Shown piece by piece: positions 19,784 through 58,749 of a stretch of DNA of 64,000 nt (its first letter is position 1; each line of letters starts with the position of its first letter). The stretch is from an uncultured Gammaproteobacteria bacterium. GTDB taxonomy: Bacteria; Patescibacteriota; Patescibacteriia; Patescibacteriales; UBA12465. The translations under genes and the position numbers were made by a program. A model generated the notes under the pieces. It saw only the letters and a program-made list of their open reading frames with translations. It made no database searches and was not told the origin of the DNA. Where the stretch lies: contig CAYYDR010000001.1 in NCBI GenBank assembly GCA_964470695.1, positions 465,997 through 529,996 of the forward strand, given 5' to 3'.

Positions 19784-21949
19784 ATGAAAAACAAGCTCAT
19801 CTTGATGGCAATTATATTAGTTGCCTCTGGCACCTTGTTATTATCGCGAGGAGTCCAAGCTGCAACGCCAGTTTTGTCCTTATCAACCACTAATGACGGC
19901 GATTATGTTAAATTGGATGTAGCTAACGGAGATGCTGACTCCAGTATTTTGCTATATTATCATAAGAGTAGCGGCGGCTTGCAAGTTAGATATTTAGGGA
20001 AGACCAATGCTAGCGGCAATTACTCAACTAATATAAGTACTTCCGATTATGATGTTATTACTAATGATTCTGTTTATGTGGCCGTTAATAACAAGCAATC
20101 TTCTTTAGTTAGTTGGCCCCTAGTTGCTTCTAGCGGTGGAGCCTTGACCCTTAATAAGACTGGTTTAGTTTTTTCGGTCGGCCAATCCGAAACGCTGACA
20201 GTTGGAAATGTCGGGACTAATATTTTGTACTTACTAAATAATTCTAACCCACAGATTGCTAATGTTAATATCTCTGGCAGCCAGGTAACTGTAAAAGCTA
20301 ATACTTATGGGCAAACAGTAGTAACGGTGTGTGCACTAGGAACGACTTCAAATTGCGCTAGCACCTATGTGACAGTCCAGAATTCGGGCGCTAAAACGCT
20401 TACTTTCAGCCAGAGCAACTTAACCATCGCCGCTGGACAAAGTTCCCAGATCACTATTTTAAATAGTAGTGGAAGCTATACTATTTTAAATAATTCCAAT
20501 CCTAGTATTATTCAGGCCAGTATAAAAGATGCGGTTATAACTTTAACTGCTAGTAATAACAGTGGTACCGCCGCTTTAACCGTCTGTCAGTCTGATATGA
20601 GTGGTTGCGGCATTATTAATGCTAGTTCTGGTAGCGTGAGCTCGTCTACTTTAGTTTTTAACCAAACCGCCCCCTTACTTACGACCGGCCAGACTTTAAA
20701 CGTCGCTATTTCAGGTGGCGGTAGCAACTATAATATCTCATCAAATTCTAATTCCAACGTCCTATCAGCTAGTATTAATGGCACTAATTTGGTTTTAATA
20801 GGGAACAGCGCTGGGTCTTCTACGGTCACTGTTTGTTCCTCAAGCGGTAATTGCAATTCTTTAAGCGCTACGGTTAGTTACGCGACCAGCGGCCCCATTA
20901 CTTTAAGCCAGACTAGCTTATGGCTGCAGGTTGGACAAGCGGTGAGCGTTACTATTTCTGGCGGCACTATGCCTTATAGTATTTTACCTGATACAAATTC
21001 TAATAGTATTTTTTCTAGTAATTTAAATAATAATATTTTGACTCTAACTGGTTTAGCGGCGGGGTCATCTTCGCTTAGCGTCTGCTCGGCCGCCGGTGCC
21101 TGCACTAATTTATCAGTTTTAGTTAATGGCGTTAGCTCTAGTAGTCAATTAACTTTTAGTAATAATAATCTATCTTTGAATGTTGGCGCTGATGCTAATA
21201 TTTCTTTGTTTGGTAATGGTGGATACTATGTTTCTACTAGTAATAACCTTAATGTTGCTTCTATAACCGTCACTGGTTCCCAGGCCAAGGTCTCTGCTTT
21301 AAGCCCTGGCAGCGCTAATGCTACCATTTGCCAGACCGGCGGTCAGTGCAGCGTTTTATATGTAGTAGTGGCTTCCAATGCTTCCACGGTTTCTACCCCG
21401 ACTTTTAGCCAGGTTAATCCGACAATTTCTGTCGGCCAGAGTTCAACTATAACTATTACGGGAGGAACTGGTACTAGTTATAGCCTTTCGTCAAATTCTA
21501 ATCCAACCATAGTCCAAGCTAATGTTAATGGCAGCAGCTTAGTATTACTAGGAAAGAGCCAAGGGAGCGCAGTTTTATCAGTTTGCGCCGCTTCTAATAG
21601 CTGTAATTCTTTAGCGGTTACTGTTAACGCGGTTAGCGCTTCAACTGGTGGCTCATCGGTAACCGGTAATACCGGAAATAGTAATGCTGGCAACTCCGCA
21701 AATACGGGCGCTACTAATAAACCGGTTAAACCAAAATATAAGTTTACACGTTATTTGACAGTAGGCTCTAAGGGGGCGGATGTTACCGCCCTGCAGACTC
21801 GCTTGAAGTATGAAGGAGTCTATTCCGGCCCAATAACCGGTACTTTTGGAGCTCAGACTTATGAGGCGGTTAAAGCTTATCAGAAAAAGAATAAATTGCA
21901 GACTCTGGGCGTAGTCGGGCCAGGAACCAGAGCTTTGCTTAATAAGTAA
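19784..21949 (+). CDS. secreted protein with six Big_2-like Ig repeats and a C-terminal peptidoglycan-binding domain
   Basis: Signal peptide; six units of about 80 aa, each ending in a Cys-x5-6-Cys pair. The C-terminus (GADVTALQTRLKYEGVYSGPITGTFGAQTYEAVKAYQ) is PG_binding_1-like. Confidence 0.75.
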   Translation: MKNKLILMAIILVASGTLLLSRGVQAATPVLSLSTTNDGDYVKLDVANGDADSSILLYYHKSSGGLQVRYLGKTNASGNYSTNISTSDYDVITNDSVYVAVNNKQSSLVSWPLVASSGGALTLNKTGLVFSVGQSETLTVGNVGTNILYLLNNSNPQIANVNISGSQVTVKANTYGQTVVTVCALGTTSNCASTYVTVQNSGAKTLTFSQSNLTIAAGQSSQITILNSSGSYTILNNSNPSIIQASIKDAVITLTASNNSGTAALTVCQSDMSGCGIINASSGSVSSSTLVFNQTAPLLTTGQTLNVAISGGGSNYNISSNSNSNVLSASINGTNLVLIGNSAGSSTVTVCSSSGNCNSLSATVSYATSGPITLSQTSLWLQVGQAVSVTISGGTMPYSILPDTNSNSIFSSNLNNNILTLTGLAAGSSSLSVCSAAGACTNLSVLVNGVSSSSQLTFSNNNLSLNVGADANISLFGNGGYYVSTSNNLNVASITVTGSQAKVSALSPGSANATICQTGGQCSVLYVVVASNASTVSTPTFSQVNPTISVGQSSTITITGGTGTSYSLSSNSNPTIVQANVNGSSLVLLGKSQGSAVLSVCAASNSCNSLAVTVNAVSASTGGSSVTGNTGNSNAGNSANTGATNKPVKPKYKFTRYLTVGSKGADVTALQTRLKYEGVYSGPITGTFGAQTYEAVKAYQKKNKLQTLGVVGPGTRALLNK
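20140..21650 (+). repeat. six divergent tandem coding repeats of about 240 nt (Big_2-like units)
   Basis: Recurrent pattern L(T/V)FSQ..L.(I/L)..GQS..(I/V)T(I/V)...SNSNP.I.(Q/S)A...G..(L/V)......G.(A/S).(L/V)(T/S)VC....C in the translation. Confidence 0.6.
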
Positions 21950-55067: not shown

Positions 55068-56306
55068 ATGAATAAAAAATACTCACATTTCTGGAAATTT
55101 AATATCCTTATTATCATTTTAGTAGGTTTGGTTTTTCTATCTCCAGCTGTTTTTAGCCAATATTCCAGTCTGGATGATGAAATAAATACCCTCAATCTTA
55201 AAATCCAGAATCAAAAGAAACAGCTGGAGGCCCTGCGATCTCGCCAACAAGAGTATCAATCGCAAATTGCTCTTAAACAGAAAGACAGAATTAATCTTAG
55301 CAATCAGCTGGCTATTCTTGATAACCGTTTAGCTAAAGCCGCTCTTGATATTGAAAGCGTTAATCTGGAAATAGACAAAACTAATCTAGAAATTAAAAAG
55401 ATAGAAATTGATAGTAAAAATTTAAATCAAAAAATTGAAGAGCAAAAACAGCACATTGCTAATCTCCTGCGATCTATGTATAAGCAGGACCAGATTTCTA
55501 CTTTAGAAATACTCCTTTTAAATAATTCTTTAACAGAATTTTTAAATCAGGCCCAATATTTAGTTGACGCCAACGAAGAGATAAGCGGCAGCGTAGAAGA
55601 CTTAAAATATGATAAAGATAGGTTAGAGCAGAATAAACTCAGCTTTGATCAAAAAAATATTGATTTGCTTTCTCTTAAAGATAAGCTGCAAGAAAAAAAA
55701 GAAGGGCTAGTTTTTGAACAAGAAAATAAAAATTATTTACTAGAGGAGACAAGATCTTCGGAACAGCAGTACCAAGCTTTATTACAGCAAGCCAGAAGGG
55801 AACAGCAGCAAGCTGAAGCTGATATTGCTAGCGCCGAGCAATTAATTAGGCAGAAAATGTCTCAAAAAGACAAAAATCGCCTGAATAATGGTAACAATAC
55901 TATCGCCTGGCCAGTACCTAAGAATGTTATTGTAACTAGTTTCCGCGACGCCGACTATCCTTATCGCAATATAATCGGTGAACACTCGGCGGTTGATATT
56001 AGAGCCAGACAGGGAACTAATTTGACTGCCGCGGCTGATGGCTATGTCGCTAAAGTTAAGTTTGATGGTTCAACCAAATATTCTTATATAATGATTATCC
56101 ATGGTAATGGCCTGGCGACTGTCTACGGCCATATTTCAGCGGCCTATGTCATGGCTGATCAATATGTCACTCAAGGGCAGTCAATTGGCCGAACGGGTGG
56201 CACGCCAGGAGGCGTTGGAACAGGCCCATTTTCTACTGGCCCTCATTTACACTTTGAAGTCCGTCTAAACGGTTTACCGGTTAACCCGGAGAACTATTTA
56301 CCATAG
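55068..56306 (+). CDS. M23-family metallopeptidase with N-terminal coiled coil (EnvC-like)
   Basis: TM/signal segment, long Q/E/K/L coiled coil, HSAVDI...HGNGL...GPHLHFEV. Confidence 0.9.
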   Translation: MNKKYSHFWKFNILIIILVGLVFLSPAVFSQYSSLDDEINTLNLKIQNQKKQLEALRSRQQEYQSQIALKQKDRINLSNQLAILDNRLAKAALDIESVNLEIDKTNLEIKKIEIDSKNLNQKIEEQKQHIANLLRSMYKQDQISTLEILLLNNSLTEFLNQAQYLVDANEEISGSVEDLKYDKDRLEQNKLSFDQKNIDLLSLKDKLQEKKEGLVFEQENKNYLLEETRSSEQQYQALLQQARREQQQAEADIASAEQLIRQKMSQKDKNRLNNGNNTIAWPVPKNVIVTSFRDADYPYRNIIGEHSAVDIRARQGTNLTAAADGYVAKVKFDGSTKYSYIMIIHGNGLATVYGHISAAYVMADQYVTQGQSIGRTGGTPGGVGTGPFSTGPHLHFEVRLNGLPVNPENYLP

Positions 56307-56326
56307 AATAAATCAATTTTTATAAA

Positions 56327-56358
56327 TAAAAAAGGGCTTTTAAAATAGCCCTTTTTTT
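56327..56358. terminator. bidirectional terminator at the point where gene orientation converges
   Basis: AAAAAAGGGCT-TTTAAAAT-AGCCCTTTTTTT. Confidence 0.8.
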
Positions 56359-56379
56359 GTTTTGGCTTTAAAAAGATCT

Positions 56380-56562
56380 TTACGTTCTTTTTTTGCCATG
56401 CCGTGTTTTCTTATCGGAAGCCTTTTTTGCCTCTGATTCAGCACTTGAGCCGCGGTGCGAGTTTTCTACTTCTCCTGCGTGTCCACAGCAGGGGCGACCA
56501 AACCCGCATGGTTGTCCGGTAAGATGGCAATGGCAAGAACAACTGTTGCTTGCTATAGACAT
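56380..56562 (-). CDS. small Cys/His-rich protein with basic tail (metal-binding suspected)
   Basis: MSIASNSCSCHCHLTGQPCGFGRPCCGH... has 6 Cys in its N-terminal half (positions 8-26). SD GAGGT lies 4 nt from the ATG. It has its own TTGACA-17-TAATCT promoter and a terminator downstream. Confidence 0.6.
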   Translation of the reverse strand: MSIASNSCSCHCHLTGQPCGFGRPCCGHAGEVENSHRGSSAESEAKKASDKKTRHGKKRT

Positions 56563-56587
56563 GCCAACCTCGTTAATTGTTAATTTT

Positions 56588-56616
56588 AGATTACATTAAA
56601 AAACGTTATTTGTCAA
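56588..56616 (-). promoter_or_regulatory. promoter (TTGACA-17-TAATCT, minus strand) of the Cys-rich gene
   Basis: The reverse complement of 56611-56616 is TTGACA and of 56588-56593 is TAATCT. The element abuts the xer stop codon. Confidence 0.55.
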
Positions 56617-57573
56617 CTAAAGTTTTCTTCCATCATGAACCTTGCGATGGATATCTCTTAGTTGTTTATTAGTGACATGGGTATATATTTGGGTAGTGGC
56701 AATATTGCTATGGCCTAAAAATTCTTGAACAGTTCTCAAATCAACGCCTTGATTTAACAAATCAGTAGCAAAGGAATGGCGCAGGGTATGGGGAGTAGCC
56801 ATGACAGGCAAGCCAGCTATTTTAACATATTTTTTAACAATATCTTCTATACTTTTAACAGTTAAACGGCGGCTAGCCTGGCCTTTTTGAGCGCCACGCT
56901 TATAATTGACGAATAAAGCCTCATCCATGTCCTTACGCTCGTTTAAATAGCTTCTGAGGGCCTTAACTGCTCGGATAGAGAAGTAAACAGCCCTAATTTT
57001 ACTGCCTTTGCCAATTACAGCCGTTTCTATATCAATAGTATTATCCTTAATTCTTAATTGATCCCGGTTTAGGGCTGTTAGCTCAGCAACGCGCAGGCCG
57101 GTGGAAAAAAGAGTCTCTAAAATAGCCTGGTCGCGGAGACCAATCAGGGTACTAAGATTCGGAGAACTCAGTAGCCGCACTAATTGGTCTAATTTAAGAA
57201 ATTTTATTTCCTTGTCACCTTTATCCTTAGCTAGTTTAACTTTTGACGGCGGCAAAGATGAAATATCTTTTTCTACAAAAAATTCTAATAAAGAACGCAG
57301 GGCGATTAAATAATAATTTTGAGTGGTTTTTTTTAAAGTTTTTTTAGTTCTAGGGTCAACATGGCGAGATAGATATACTTTATAACTCCAAATCTCCTCC
57401 GGAGACAGGGAAGCGGGTTTTAAGCTCTCCCGGCCCGTATCTTTAAGCCAAGTAAAAAACTTATGCAAGAAGCGCGTATAATTTTCCTGGGTCTTGGAAG
57501 ATAGACCTTTTTCAATTTCGCAATAATCCAGGAAGTCTACTAAATATTTTATTATCGGTTTATTTTTATCCAT
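56617..57573 (-). CDS. XerC/XerD-family tyrosine recombinase
   Basis: N-terminal SAM-like core-binding domain; catalytic residues present (R in GLRVAEL, HTLRHSFAT, GHSNIATTQIYTHV). Confidence 0.9.
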   Translation of the reverse strand: MDKNKPIIKYLVDFLDYCEIEKGLSSKTQENYTRFLHKFFTWLKDTGRESLKPASLSPEEIWSYKVYLSRHVDPRTKKTLKKTTQNYYLIALRSLLEFFVEKDISSLPPSKVKLAKDKGDKEIKFLKLDQLVRLLSSPNLSTLIGLRDQAILETLFSTGLRVAELTALNRDQLRIKDNTIDIETAVIGKGSKIRAVYFSIRAVKALRSYLNERKDMDEALFVNYKRGAQKGQASRRLTVKSIEDIVKKYVKIAGLPVMATPHTLRHSFATDLLNQGVDLRTVQEFLGHSNIATTQIYTHVTNKQLRDIHRKVHDGRKL

Positions 57574-57655
57574 ATTGAATTTCCTATTTACATTATAACA
57601 TAAGCAGGGGATGAAGGAATAAAGGCTTTATTTCTTAGTCTTTTTGCTTAACCAT

Positions 57656-57683
57656 ACTTCGCATAATGTATATTAATAAACGT
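57656..57683. other. candidate dif-like Xer recombination site
   Basis: ACTTCGCATAA-TGTATA-TTAATAAACGT. The 16-nt core CGCATAATGTATATTA is identical to the same positions of E. coli dif (recalled from memory). It lies 83-110 nt upstream of the xer start. Confidence 0.45.
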
Positions 57684-57692
57684 ATAGCTAGG

Positions 57693-57717
57693 CAAAATAG
57701 AAGGGGCCTTGGGCCCC
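57693..57717 (-). terminator. terminator of the serS-to-ftsQ minus-strand operon
   Basis: GGGGCC-TTG-GGCCCC, followed on the minus strand by TTCTATTTTG. Confidence 0.55.
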
Positions 57718-57739: not shown

Positions 57740-57880
57740 TTAACTAATAATGAGCCCCATTAAGCGTACATCAGGCTGAAACATTAAAATAATTTTAATG
57801 ATTAATAGAAATATGCCGATAACAACTAGACAGAAAATAACCACAGCTAAAGCAAATAATAATTTAAAAGCGCCTTCCAT
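57740..57880 (-). CDS. unannotated 46-aa single-TM small protein downstream of ftsQ
   Basis: MEGAFKLLFALAVVIFCLVVIGIFLLIIKIILMFQPDVRLMGLIIS. The ATG is 14 nt after the ftsQ stop and the ORF lies upstream of the operon terminator. Below the ORF-track cutoff. Confidence 0.4.
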   Translation of the reverse strand: MEGAFKLLFALAVVIFCLVVIGIFLLIIKIILMFQPDVRLMGLIIS

Positions 57881-57894
57881 ATATTTATGCTTAA

Positions 57895-58749
57895 TTATTT
57901 AAAATCTGGGTAAATTATGACCTGGTTGCTATAGCGCAGGTCCATATAGTTAGTCTTACTAAAATTATCCTTTATTTTTTGATTTTTGACAAGAAGAAGC
58001 CTCTCAATCTGGTCGTCAGCTGATTCCTTCGTGTTAAAGTAGATTAAAGGGCCATTAGCCACCTTAACTTTAATAGTGTTAAATTCTTGATCAATTATGA
58101 ATCTTTCCACCGGTAAATCGCTATGTTTTATTAGTCGTTCACTAAGTCCGAAAATAAAAATCAAATAATCATTTTTAATACTAAGCTTATTATTTTCGCC
58201 GACCATGCTTGACGATGACTTATTTTCAAGAATAAAATATCTTTTTTTGTCTTCTTCTTTAACGGCCGTCTCTTTAATAAGGTAGGCATCGGCTGAAGAA
58301 TATGATAAATCGCCTCCCTCTTGGAAAATAAAAGCATAGGGCCGCTCACTAACCTTTAAGATAAGCGTGTTGGGTAGCTTTTTACTAATTGTTAAGCCGG
58401 CAAAATTGTAAGCCGAAATAATCTGTTCACTAGCAATAGTTTTATCAAATAAAAAAATATTATTTTCTCTGAAAAATACCCAGTGCTTACCGCTCGCCTG
58501 ATCCCAAATTATTTTTTCTAATTCAGCGCTATTTATTCTCGTTAATCCTTCAATTTTTATATTTTTTATTTGCCACCAAGGAGCAAAAAAGACTAGCCAA
58601 ATCATGGCTAAGAAGCCAATAACCGCTAACAATATTATCCAAATAACTGAGCGCGGTTTTTTGTCTGGTTGACGACGGCGAAAAAACGGATTTTGCAGGT
58701 TCTTGCGCTGATAATCTTTTTTTATTTTTTTATAAGGTCGGCCAAGCAT
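57895..58749 (-). CDS. ftsQ: FtsQ/DivIB-like cell division protein
   Basis: Basic N-terminus, one TM segment, then a POTRA-like IKNIKIEGLTRINSAELEKII. Confidence 0.7.
   Translation of the reverse strand: MLGRPYKKIKKDYQRKNLQNPFFRRRQPDKKPRSVIWIILLAVIGFLAMIWLVFFAPWWQIKNIKIEGLTRINSAELEKIIWDQASGKHWVFFRENNIFLFDKTIASEQIISAYNFAGLTISKKLPNTLILKVSERPYAFIFQEGGDLSYSSADAYLIKETAVKEEDKKRYFILENKSSSSMVGENNKLSIKNDYLIFIFGLSERLIKHSDLPVERFIIDQEFNTIKVKVANGPLIYFNTKESADDQIERLLLVKNQKIKDNFSKTNYMDLRYSNQVIIYPDFK

What the first reader, a model, noticed from the sequence alone, without database searches (positions are those of the whole stretch)
56307..57683. Gene-orientation convergence plus a dif-like site beside the only xer gene: probable replication terminus
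About 45 of 53 genes left of 56306 are on the + strand, and all 8 genes right of 56380 are on the - strand. The switch is at the bidirectional terminator 56327-56358. About 1.3 kb away, and 83-110 nt upstream of the xer start codon, lies ACTTCGCATAA-TGTATA-TTAATAAACGT (57656-57683). Its 16-nt core CGCATAATGTATATTA is identical to the corresponding part of E. coli dif (GGTGCGCATAA TGTATA TTATGTTAAAT). Its left arm begins like B. subtilis dif (ACTTCCTAGAA...). The right arm diverges (TTAATAAACGT versus TTATGTTAAAT). Together with the single xer gene nearby, this recalls single-recombinase systems such as XerS/difSL, in which dif sits next to the recombinase gene.
Basis: partly seen in the sequence, partly recalled or inferred. 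Interest (0 to 1): 0.6.

Follow-up and report, generated by a model that had tools for sequence, protein, structure and literature searches.

The report
Conserved dif site beside xer, CPR terminus
The 28-base sequence next to the recombinase gene is a real, strongly conserved chromosome-dimer-resolution (dif) site of an uncultured Candidate Phyla Radiation bacterium, sitting where the two replication arms meet and physically linked to its Xer recombinase gene, an arrangement so far described only for a few other bacterial groups.

Summary
ACTTCGCATAA-TGTATA-TTAATAAACGT lies at 57656-57683, 83-110 nt upstream of the only tyrosine-recombinase gene in the window (56617-57573, minus strand).

- **Origin.** The window comes from a Candidatus Falkowbacteria-like bacterium (Patescibacteria/CPR).
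- **Conservation.** The 28-mer is upstream of xer in 74 of the 77 related genomes that hold enough upstream DNA. Its left arm is virtually invariant, its centre is conserved and its flanks are not.
- **Symmetry.** The right arm keeps only the positions that mirror the left arm. In more distant relatives the site is a near-perfect or perfect palindrome.
- **Resemblance to dif.** The first 20 nt equal the dif of Thiobacillus denitrificans. The canonical XerD arm is missing.
- **Other lineages.** Three further CPR lineages (Xer 48-54% identical) also carry a dif-like palindrome before xer, at a point where gene orientation converges.
- **Terminus.** Third-codon-position GC skew, separated by gene strand, points toward the site from both sides. 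One arm is read in the window and the other in relatives. This supports a terminus within about 10 kb, but no whole chromosome could be read.
- **The recombinase.** It is XerC/D-like and passes no named Xer model. Whether it acts alone is inferred, not shown.

Verdict: a new, cis-linked variant of Xer/dif, of moderate interest.

The parts
57656..57683 (.). 28-bp dif site (11-6-11): ACTTCGCATAA / TGTATA / TTAATAAACGT
   Evidence: Read directly. Unique in the window. Present upstream of xer in 74 of 77 related loci with unconserved flanks. 25% G+C.
57656..57666 (.). Invariant arm ACTTCGCATAA on the xer side; inferred strong Xer-binding half-site
   Evidence: Nearly 2 bits of information at all 11 columns across 75 sites. 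Identical to the XerC-side arm of the T. denitrificans and M. flagellatus dif.
57667..57672 (.). Central hexamer TGTATA; inferred strand-exchange region
   Evidence: TGTATA or TGTAGA in nearly all relatives. Identical to the E. coli dif centre.
57673..57683 (.). Degenerate arm TTAATAAACGT; inferred weak half-site
   Evidence: Among 28 distinct site variants, T1, T2, A3, A4 and A8 are invariant or nearly so and T11 is 93% conserved. All but A4 are the positions that mirror the invariant arm. The arm reads TTAAGCGAAGT or TTATGCGAAGT (palindromic) in more distant relatives.
56617..57573 (-). xer: 318-aa XerC/D-like tyrosine recombinase
   Evidence: Pfam Phage_integrase plus SAM-like N-terminal domain. 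NCBIfam XerC 222.8, XerD 221.0 and XerA 192.2 bits, all below their cut-offs. Best solved relative is E. coli XerD 1a0p at 129 bits, against 55 bits for XerH. Motifs GLR, GKGSKIR, HTLRH and GHSNIATTQIY are present and align with the XerD active site.
57580..57600 (-). Putative xer promoter -10 (TGTTATAAT, 57600-57592) and ribosome-binding site (AGGAAA, 57585-57580)
   Evidence: Sequence inspection. The dif site ends 56 nt upstream of the -10 element, so it does not overlap the core promoter. Consensus match only.
56328..56357 (.). Bidirectional terminator hairpin at the point where + and - strand genes converge
   Evidence: Terminator scan: 11-pair stem, T-run after it and A-run before it.
57703..57717 (-). 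GC-rich hairpin terminator closing the ftsQ / small-ORF operon just before dif
   Evidence: Terminator scan, GGGGCC...GGCCCC followed by a T-rich tail. Similar GC-rich hairpins are visible in the flanks of many relatives.
57740..57880 (-). 46-aa hydrophobic ORF between the FtsQ-like gene and dif
   Evidence: ORF list. Called as a gene on the Logan contig. A similar small membrane ORF is readable in the DNA upstream of dif in L077.
57895..58749 (-). FtsQ-like (POTRA) gene, last conserved gene of the arm that runs into dif
   Evidence: Pfam POTRA_1 and NCBIfam FtsQ, both weak. Syntenic in 67 of 80 loci.
55068..56306 (+). M23 peptidase gene, last gene of the opposite arm
   Evidence: Pfam Peptidase_M23. 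Same position in L046 and L208.

Best explanation
The 28-mer at 57656-57683 is the chromosomal dif site of this Falkowbacteria-like CPR bacterium, and the adjacent 318-aa gene encodes the Xer recombinase that acts on it.

**Inferred mechanism.**
1. Xer binds the invariant arm ACTTCGCATAA tightly. It binds the degenerate arm TTAA...A..T cooperatively.
2. Two dif copies on a dimeric chromosome synapse at the division septum.
3. Strand exchange takes place across the 6-bp centre TGTATA and restores monomers.
4. The asymmetry between the arms would fix the order of strand exchange.

**Location and organisation.** The site lies in the replication-terminus zone, where the two replichores and their gene orientations converge. 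Together with xer it forms a cis-linked module.

**Shown:**
- the sequence and its uniqueness in the window;
- its conservation and the pattern of that conservation;
- its homology to canonical dif;
- the family and active-site motifs of the protein;
- the convergence of strand biases.

**Inferred:**
- binding, cleavage and dimer resolution;
- that a single recombinase suffices;
- dependence on an FtsK-like translocase.
For: 1. **Conservation.** 74 of the 77 related genomes with enough upstream DNA (Xer 69-86% identical) carry the site upstream of xer in a fixed orientation. Information content is close to 2 bits per column within the site and close to 0 in the flanks.
2. **Homology to dif.** The first 20 nt are identical to betaproteobacterial dif sites and the centre is identical to that of E. 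coli dif. The site is non-coding, 25% G+C and has 11-6-11 dyad architecture, which meets four of the five criteria of PMC2731167.
3. **Symmetry.** The conserved positions of the degenerate arm are those that mirror the invariant arm. Relatives carry ACTTCGCATAA-TGTAGA-TTAAGCGAAGT and, in L069, the perfect ACTTCGCATAA-TGTATA-TTATGCGAAGT.
4. **Other CPR lineages.** Lineages with Xer 48-54% identical have their own dif-like palindromes just upstream of xer, at a gene-orientation switch with different neighbouring genes:
   - L204, Jacksonbacteria: ACGTCGCTTTA-CATAGA-TAAATCGACGT;
   - L208: ATGTCGTATAA-TATAGA-TTAAGAGACGA;
   - L292: ATGTCGCACAA-TGTATC-TTTTACGACGT.
5. **Not tied to the xer promoter.** In 23 of 74 loci, 0.3-1.1 kb of unrelated DNA separates the site from xer. 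In the window it lies upstream of the -35 region.
6. **Terminus.**
   - The window's cumulative skew peaks at 56798.
   - Mean skew flips at the site across the loci.
   - The FtsQ-side arm is 90-95% co-oriented with positive skew for at least 20 kb.
   - Minority-strand genes are lagging-like on both arms.
7. **The protein.** It is an XerC/D-type recombinase with intact catalytic motifs.
8. **Use by phages.** Four unrelated phage contigs carry the CPR-type palindromic site. This fits a site that a host recombinase acts on.
Against: - No full chromosome could be read, so the global GC-skew extremum is unknown.
- The site sits at about 10% and about 21% of the two deposited complete chromosomes (OW818634.1 and CP066698.1). 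Their start points are unknown.
- The window's own right arm is only 6-10 kb long, and its GC3 signal is intermediate at -0.076.
- In relatives, the 10 kb downstream of xer shows no leading/lagging contrast.
- In L204, L208 and L292 the skew drops at the site but does not turn negative.
- The canonical, normally best-conserved XerD arm TTATGTTAAAT is absent.
- Three loci (L033, L040, L057) lack the site upstream of xer.
- No FtsK gene is in the window.
- There is no biochemical evidence.
Confidence: 0.8

Rival explanations
1. The site is dif, but the system is a conventional two-recombinase one. A second Xer paralogue encoded elsewhere in the genome binds the degenerate arm, and the neighbouring gene supplies only one partner.
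For: Most bacteria use XerC plus XerD (PMC5357621). The protein scores equally against the XerC and XerD models and is closest to E. coli XerD among solved structures. The two arms differ in the window and in most close relatives. Only 64 kb of a genome of roughly 0.7-1 Mb was seen.
Against: The positions conserved in the degenerate arm are those that mirror the invariant arm, including the outer positions A8 and T11. The outer positions otherwise vary freely among close relatives. Related lineages have near-perfect or perfect palindromes, which need only one specificity. No canonical XerD arm is present. No second recombinase is found in the window or in about 3 Mb of related flanking DNA, although that DNA covers only the same neighbourhood.
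Confidence: 0.25
2. The site is dif, but the convergence at 56.3 kb is only a boundary between conserved operon blocks. The true fork-meeting point lies elsewhere, more than 10 kb away.
For: Synteny around the site is inherited across Falkowbacteria, so repeated convergence is not independent evidence. Total GC skew follows gene orientation. In relatives, genes on the two strands downstream of xer do not differ in coding-strand skew. In three other lineages the skew does not turn negative after the site.
Against: Replication-linked GC3 asymmetry, measured on minority-strand genes, points toward the site on both arms. The same dif-xer-convergence pattern recurs in lineages with different neighbouring genes. 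Known dif sites lie within 0.3-39 kb of the skew maximum (PMC2731167). On a 976,338-bp metagenome contig the site lies at 50.8% of the length; this is weak, because the origin was not located.
Confidence: 0.15
3. The conserved 28-mer is mainly a regulatory operator through which Xer or another protein controls xer transcription, not a recombination site.
For: It lies 83-110 nt upstream of the start codon. Three relatives have an extra lone half-site ACTTCGCATAAT next to the xer -10 region. Autoregulation was also suggested for difSL (PMC1914069).
Against: In 23 of 74 loci the site is separated from xer by up to 1.1 kb of unrelated DNA. In the window it lies upstream of the -35 region. It has the full 11-6-11 recombination-site architecture and 20 nt of identity to genuine dif sites. 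Phages carry the same site.
Confidence: 0.05
4. xer plus the site are the integrase and attachment site of an integrated mobile element, not a housekeeping system.
For: [quoted passage not shown] A 52%-identical Xer-like gene sits in a phage genome, L294. Phage contigs carry similar sites.
Against: The pair sits at the same place between core genes (ftsQ, alr, serS and dnaX on one side; an M23 peptidase gene and gltX on the other) in dozens of species-level genomes. There is one copy per locus, no second flanking site and no phage or conjugation genes next to it.
Confidence: 0.04

Closest known systems
XerS/difSL module of Streptococcus and Lactococcus
   Same: The recombination site lies immediately upstream of its recombinase gene in the terminus region. 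The gene stands alone and ends in a terminator. Only the site-gene pair is conserved while its surroundings vary (PMC1914069; here).
   Different: difSL is 31 bp with an 11-bp centre (PMC5357621); this site is 28 bp with a 6-bp centre. The protein has 318 aa against 356. It scores 118.5 bits against the XerS model, whose cut-off is 267. The site sequence is of the canonical dif type.
XerH/difH of Helicobacter and Campylobacter
   Same: dif lies near the recombinase gene, and the arms are largely palindromic with one weaker arm (PMC5357621).
   Different: The protein is only distantly similar to XerH: 55 bits to 5jjv against 129 bits to E. coli XerD. It is also shorter, 318 aa against 354-362. 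The site sequence is unrelated to the difH consensus listed in PMC2731167.
Canonical XerCD/dif (E. coli, Thiobacillus denitrificans and other Proteobacteria)
   Same: 28-bp 11-6-11 site, non-coding, low G+C and close to the skew switch. The XerC-side arm, the centre and the first 3 nt of the other arm are identical to the T. denitrificans dif. The recombinase is of the XerC/D type with the same catalytic motifs.
   Different: The XerD arm TTATGTTAAAT, the best-conserved part of canonical dif, is replaced by a degenerate mirror of the other arm. The site is linked to the recombinase gene, whereas xerC, xerD and dif are dispersed in canonical systems (PMC1914069). The protein reaches neither the XerC nor the XerD cut-off.
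Archaeal XerA/dif
   Same: A single recombinase acts on a conserved 28-bp dif in the terminus region (PMC5357621). The XerA model gives a substantial score of 192 bits, and the XerA structures 4a8e and 5hxy are the next best solved relatives after the XerD chains.
   Different: The score is below the XerA cut-off of 220. The host is bacterial. The reviews read here do not describe linkage of dif to xerA.

Membership tests
dif site (criteria of Carnoy & Roten 2009, PMC2731167) | 28-bp site with two 11-nt arms, a 6-nt centre and inner dyad symmetry | tested here: met
   ACTTCGCATAA / TGTATA / TTAATAAACGT. The inner ATAA...TTA is symmetric. Relatives are palindromic.
dif site (criteria of Carnoy & Roten 2009, PMC2731167) | Located in non-coding DNA of low G+C | tested here: met
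   Intergenic between the 46-aa ORF and xer. 25% G+C.
dif site (criteria of Carnoy & Roten 2009, PMC2731167) | [quoted passage not shown] | tested here: inconclusive
   Local evidence is positive: window maximum at 56798, skew flip at the site across loci, and GC3 strand asymmetry converging from both arms. No whole chromosome was available, and the downstream 10 kb in relatives is flat.
dif site (criteria of Carnoy & Roten 2009, PMC2731167) | Highly conserved XerD-binding arm (TTATGTTAAAT-like) | tested here: not met
   All 6 mismatches to the T. denitrificans dif fall in this arm. The family consensus is TTAATACACCT.
dif site (criteria of Carnoy & Roten 2009, PMC2731167) | Recombined by Xer to resolve chromosome dimers | not testable with these tools
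   Needs genetics or biochemistry.
XerC/XerD paralogue pair | Protein passes the XerC or XerD equivalog model | tested here: not met
   XerC 222.8 bits against a cut-off of 335.15. XerD 221.0 bits against a cut-off of 329.6.
XerC/XerD paralogue pair | Tyrosine-recombinase fold with the R-K-H-R-H-Y catalytic set | tested here: met
   Pfam Phage_integrase, E = 2.4e-40. Aligned with XerD 1a0p, the motifs GLR, GKGSKIR, HTLRH and GH...Y are all present.
XerC/XerD paralogue pair | Two different recombinase genes in the genome | not testable with these tools
   Only one in the 64-kb window.
XerS/difSL | XerS-type protein | tested here: not met
   NF003462 XerS scores 118.5 bits against a cut-off of 267, and the match covers the C-terminal half only.
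XerS/difSL | 31-bp site with an 11-bp central region | tested here: not met
   The site is 28 bp with a 6-bp centre. The difSL description is from PMC5357621.
XerS/difSL | Site immediately upstream of the recombinase gene, forming one module | tested here: met
   Median gap of about 130 nt in 74 loci and a fixed orientation.
XerH/difH | XerH-type protein | tested here: not met
   55.1 bits to XerH 5jjv against 129.3 bits to XerD 1a0p.
XerA (archaeal) | Protein passes the XerA equivalog model | tested here: not met
   NF040815 scores 192.2 bits against a cut-off of 220.
Single-recombinase Xer systems (functional class) | One recombinase recognises both arms | tested here: inconclusive
   Indirect support comes from mirror-symmetric conservation and from palindromic sites in relatives and in other CPR lineages. 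No genome-wide gene count and no binding data.

The most novel reading that the evidence does not exclude
Several lineages of the Parcubacteria group (Falkowbacteria, Jacksonbacteria and others) resolve chromosome dimers with a single XerC/D-like recombinase. It acts on a cis-linked dif that was ancestrally palindromic and is of the canonical sequence type. This would be a further, independent bacterial single-Xer module, distinct from XerS and XerH, in which one arm has secondarily degenerated. CPR phages would exploit it: four unrelated phage contigs carry the matching palindromic site, and one phage carries a 52%-identical Xer-like integrase. These would be the first Xer-exploiting mobile elements proposed for CPR bacteria.
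Probability: 0.5. Interest if true: 0.6.

Novelty: new variant of a known kind. Interest (0 to 1): 0.5.

Why it matters
- **A sequence marker for the terminus.** CPR/Patescibacteria genomes are almost all metagenome-assembled, and their chromosome biology is essentially unstudied. I found no paper on dif or Xer in these organisms in the library searched. A recognisable 28-bp dif gives a direct sequence marker of the terminus. That helps in checking assemblies, orienting replichores and estimating growth rate from coverage in these genomes. GRiD uses dif in this way (PMC6251912).
- **A clue to how dif and Xer evolve.** The family shows a palindromic site decaying into an asymmetric one while keeping only the mirror positions. 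It also shows a XerC/D-type protein in the gene-linked arrangement so far associated with XerS and XerH. Both bear on how two-recombinase and one-recombinase systems are related.
- **A handle on CPR phages.** Phage contigs with the same site suggest a way to find integrative elements of CPR hosts.

Tried and rejected
- **The window's own chromosome.** The Xer protein (P0001) is recorded on a 677,688-bp NCBI contig. Only a 12.4-kb Logan contig could be fetched. It adds 4.2 kb to the right arm.
- **dnaA motifs.** I searched the loci for them so as to locate an origin. None was found.
- **First GC3 and AT3 decomposition.** On the first 80 loci it was ambiguous, because one side has almost no minority-strand genes and the other gave no contrast. 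A metagenome scan with the T4CP-like neighbour extended the arm and supplied 51 minority-strand genes.
- **Rfam and tRNA scans.** Nothing above threshold around the site, and no tRNA in the window.
- **FtsK.** The ten largest window proteins were checked against Pfam. None is FtsK.
- **Canonical XerD arm.** A search for a site carrying one found only a coding-region TTATGTTAAAT at 19903 with no left arm.
- **Other Xer relatives.** The Nealsonbacteria relative (L206) has no dif-like site nearby, nor does a non-CPR-looking locus (L295). I could not decide whether they are paralogues or simply unlinked systems.
- **Origin reading.** Rejected: the skew runs from + to - and no dnaA is present.
- **The 60-aa Cys-rich ORF at 56380-56562.** It is not conserved in relatives, so I do not count it as part of the system.
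Full report
**1. What is in the window**

The sequence ACTTCGCATAATGTATATTAATAAACGT is at 57656-57683. It is intergenic.
- On one side lie a 46-aa hydrophobic ORF (57740-57880, - strand) and a GC-rich terminator hairpin (57703-57717).
- On the other side lies a 318-aa ORF (56617-57573, - strand).
- The site is 83-110 nt upstream of that ORF's ATG.
- A good extended -10 element (TGTTATAAT, 57600-57592) and a ribosome-binding site lie between the site and the ATG. The site therefore sits upstream of the core promoter and does not overlap it.

The 16-nt core shared with E. coli dif occurs once in the window. Looser matches are at chance level. No other 28-mer in the window comes close to canonical dif.

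- With ORFs of at least 100 aa, 43 are on + and 7 on - to the left of 56306.
- All ORFs to the right are on -.
- A hairpin flanked by an A-run and a T-run sits at 56328-56357, between the two blocks.
- Cumulative G-C peaks at 56798.

**2. Whose genome it is**

A scan of one genome per species with the recombinase returned 80 loci at 69-86% amino-acid identity. The records with an informative taxon name are labelled Candidatus Falkowbacteria, Parcubacteria or 'Patescibacteria group'; many others carry only generic submitter labels. NCBI places Falkowbacteria in the Parcubacteria group of the Patescibacteria.

The gene order is conserved:
- on one side of the convergence point, all transcribed toward it: a T4CP-like ATPase, dnaX, serS, a GHL15-domain protein, a 349-aa protein, alr, an FtsQ-like gene, dif and xer;
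- on the other side, on the opposite strand and also transcribed toward it: an M23 peptidase gene and gltX.

The window's own recombinase (P0001) is recorded on a 677,688-bp NCBI contig, which I could not fetch.

**3. The site is conserved as a functional element**

The 28-mer is upstream of xer, always in the same orientation, in 74 of the 77 related loci that hold enough upstream DNA. I aligned these with the window's own site, 75 sites in all, each with 40 nt of flank.
- The eleven positions of the left arm ACTTCGCATAA carry close to 2 bits each.
- The centre is TGTATA or TGTAGA.
- The flanks carry close to 0 bits.

The right arm behaves differently. Among the 28 distinct variants:
- T1, T2, A3 and A8 are invariant;
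- A4 is an A in 27 of the 28 variants;
- T11 is conserved in 93% of the variants;
- positions 5-7 and 9-10 vary even among close relatives.

Apart from A4, the conserved positions are exactly those that mirror the left arm.

In the more distant loci the right arm becomes TTAAGCGAAGT. In L069 it is TTATGCGAAGT, which makes a perfect inverted repeat of the left arm around TGTATA. The simplest reading is one recognition specificity for both arms, with one arm degenerating in the clade that contains the window. This is an inference. I could not count recombinase genes in a complete genome.

**4. It is a relative of canonical dif**

The table in Carnoy & Roten 2009 (PMC2731167) lists these sites:
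- E. coli: GGTGCGCATAATGTATATTATGTTAAAT
- Thiobacillus denitrificans: ACTTCGCATAATGTATATTATGTTAAAT

The window's site shares its first 20 nt with the second. All six differences fall in the XerD arm.

That paper gives five criteria for dif.
- Non-coding location, palindromic structure and low G+C are met.
- Closeness to the terminus is met locally.
- A conserved XerD arm is not met.

A scan of viral contigs with ACTTCGCATAATGTA returned at least 120 hits. Most are proteobacterial-type dif sites, or sites with a degenerate XerD arm that often occur as pairs 6-7 kb apart. That is the pattern of integrative elements that exploit Xer. The half-site itself is therefore not specific to CPR bacteria.

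**5. The protein**

- Pfam finds the tyrosine-recombinase catalytic domain and the SAM-like N-terminal domain.
- NCBIfam gives XerC 222.8, XerD 221.0, generic PRK00283 219.3, XerA 192.2 and XerS 118.5 bits. All are below their curated cut-offs.
- Among solved structures the best match is E. coli XerD (1a0p, 129 bits). Next come the archaeal XerA structures. XerH reaches only 55 bits.
- The catalytic motifs align with those of XerD.

It is a conventional XerC/D-type enzyme that cannot be assigned to either paralogue. It is not XerS or XerH.

**6. Beyond Falkowbacteria**

An exhaustive search of cluster representatives gave more distant relatives. Context could be fetched for several.
- **L204/L205** (Jacksonbacteria, 48% identity): ACGTCGCTTTA-CATAGA-TAAATCGACGT ends 38 nt before xer.
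- **L208** (54% identity): ATGTCGTATAA-TATAGA-TTAAGAGACGA ends 15 nt before xer.
- **L292/L293** (50% identity): ATGTCGCACAA-TGTATC-TTTTACGACGT lies about 300 nt before xer.

In all three, the genes upstream run toward xer and the genes downstream run against it. The neighbouring genes differ: UvrD and AspRS in one, gyrA and gyrB in another. The link between dif-xer and a gene-orientation switch is therefore not merely inherited Falkowbacteria synteny.

A Nealsonbacteria relative (L206) has no such site nearby. A 52%-identical relative (L294) sits in a phage genome.

**7. Is it the terminus?**

Total GC skew follows gene orientation, so I separated the two effects by comparing genes on the two strands.

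| Arm | Majority-strand genes, GC3 skew (overall skew) | Minority-strand genes, GC3 skew (overall skew) |
|---|---|---|
| Window, left of the site (56 kb) | +0.082 (+0.124), 43 genes | -0.237 (+0.001), 8 genes incl. xer |
| Relatives, FtsQ side, upstream of the T4CP-like gene (about 10-20 kb from the site where dif was located) | +0.086 (+0.122), 269 genes | -0.147 (+0.027), 51 genes incl. rpmA, tsaD-like and sua5-like |

- **Window, left arm.** The + strand is G-rich at third codon positions whichever way a gene points. It is therefore the leading strand, and the fork moves toward the site.
- **Window, right arm.** Every gene is co-oriented, so the test cannot be applied there.
- **The same arm in relatives.** I extended it with a metagenome scan using the conserved T4CP-like protein. 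In all 17 loci with a full 10-kb flank upstream of that gene, most coding bases (66-100%, over 90% in 11 of the 17) point toward the site and the skew is positive. In the seven of these where dif itself was located, the arm reaches about 20 kb from the site. The contrast between the strands there has p of about 1e-15. The values are nearly the same as on the window's other arm.

Both arms thus show leading strands that run toward the site. Averaged over the loci, skew in 1-kb bins is +0.07 to +0.13 up to the site and turns negative in the bin that starts at the site.

Limits:
- The two arms were tested in different, though syntenic, genomes.
- The window's own right-arm genes are intermediate, with GC3 skew of -0.076.
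- In relatives, the 10 kb downstream of xer shows no contrast between the strands.
- In L204, L208 and L292 the skew drops at the site but stays at or above 0.
- On a 976,338-bp metagenome contig the site lies at 50.8% of the length. On an 881,714-bp contig the neighbouring gene lies at about 51.5%. The origins were not located. In other large contigs the locus lies anywhere from 10% to 93%.

I conclude that a terminus zone within roughly 10 kb of dif is well supported but not proven.

**8. Rivals**

- **Operator for xer.** Unlikely. In 23 of 74 loci, 0.3-1.1 kb of unrelated DNA with different small ORFs lies between the site and xer.
- **Mobile-element integrase with its att site.** Unlikely, given the fixed position between core genes in dozens of species and a single copy per locus.
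- **A second Xer elsewhere.** This remains open; I put it at about 0.25.

**9. Comparison with known systems**

In organisation this matches the XerS/difSL module: the site lies immediately upstream of a stand-alone recombinase gene in the terminus region (PMC1914069). It also matches the reported proximity of difH to xerH (PMC5357621).

In sequence it belongs with canonical XerCD/dif, both for the site (28 bp, 6-bp centre, canonical arm and centre) and for the protein. It fails the defining tests for XerS, XerH, XerA, XerC and XerD individually.

I found no paper on dif or Xer in CPR bacteria in the library. I therefore rate it a new variant of a known kind and of moderate interest.

**10. 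Side observations**

Four unrelated phage contigs carry the CPR-type palindromic site next to GCTAAnnnTTAGC palindromes. One of them encodes a terminase and a portal protein. Such phages may integrate at host dif, or use the host Xer for resolution.

Noticed in passing
L083:2734-2761, L209:2792-2819, L210:10844-10871, L211:1102-1129 (IMG/VR contigs): Four phage contigs with no nucleotide similarity to each other carry a CPR-type palindromic dif-like site (ACTTCGCnnAA-n6-TTAnGCGAAGT). L083 encodes small and large terminase-like proteins and a portal-like protein. The parts held encode no Xer-like gene. Each site has a GCTAAnnnTTAGC palindrome within about 50 nt, a motif that occurs only about once per 56 kb in the host loci. 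They may be phages that integrate at host dif or borrow the host Xer.
   Followed up: partly
L294:5001-5960 (Logan SRR22388087 contig): A 319-aa protein 52% identical to the window's Xer sits in a phage-like genome (ERF, YqaJ, holin, M23 peptidase). Two GCTAAnnnTTAGC palindromes lie directly upstream of it. No dif-like site was found on the 11 kb held.
   Followed up: partly
L037:2142-4619; the window's own lineage L081:2-2284 (about 8-10 kb beyond the right end of the dif arm, outside the window): An 825-aa membrane-anchored ATPase resembles type IV coupling proteins (TrwB/VirD4/TraG, FtsK-HerA superfamily). It is conserved in synteny with dif and is far better conserved (73-91% identity in most loci) than its neighbours (about 50-60%). 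Whether it plays an FtsK-like role is pure speculation.
   Followed up: partly
L001, L005, L009, L021, L053 and 18 other loci, between dif and xer: In 23 of 74 relatives, 0.3-1.1 kb of unrelated DNA is inserted between the invariant arm of dif and xer. It often carries a different small ORF on the opposite strand. This looks like an insertion hot spot next to dif.
   Followed up: partly
L072, L076 and L078, 37-110 nt upstream of xer: An extra lone half-site ACTTCGCATAAT lies next to the xer -10 region, inverted relative to the invariant arm of the main dif 0.4-0.8 kb away. It could be an autoregulatory site, a remnant of an integration event, or one end of an invertible segment.
   Followed up: no
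window 56380-56562 (- strand): A 60-aa Cys/His-rich ORF (MSIASNSCSCHCHLTGQPCGFGRPCCGH...) lies between xer and the convergence terminator. It is 49% G+C in a 38% genome. No family hit was found. It is absent from all related loci except the window's own lineage.
   Followed up: partly
window 57740-57880 (- strand): A 46-aa hydrophobic ORF lies between the FtsQ-like gene and dif. A similar small membrane ORF is readable at the same place in the distant relative L077, so it is probably a real conserved micro-protein.
   Followed up: no
L230 (JGI contig Ga0074198_1000003, 976,338 bp) and L250 (Ga0265297_10000007, 881,714 bp): The dif locus lies at about 50.8% and about 51.5% of these two near-genome-size contigs. 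If they break near the origin, the replichores are symmetric. The origin was not located, and other large contigs show no such pattern.
   Followed up: no
proteins P0180, P0190, P0194-P0203 and others: Many cluster representatives of 650-750 aa match the Xer query in two separate stretches at about 30% identity, as if two recombinase units were fused in one polypeptide, or two adjacent genes were merged by gene calling.
   Followed up: no
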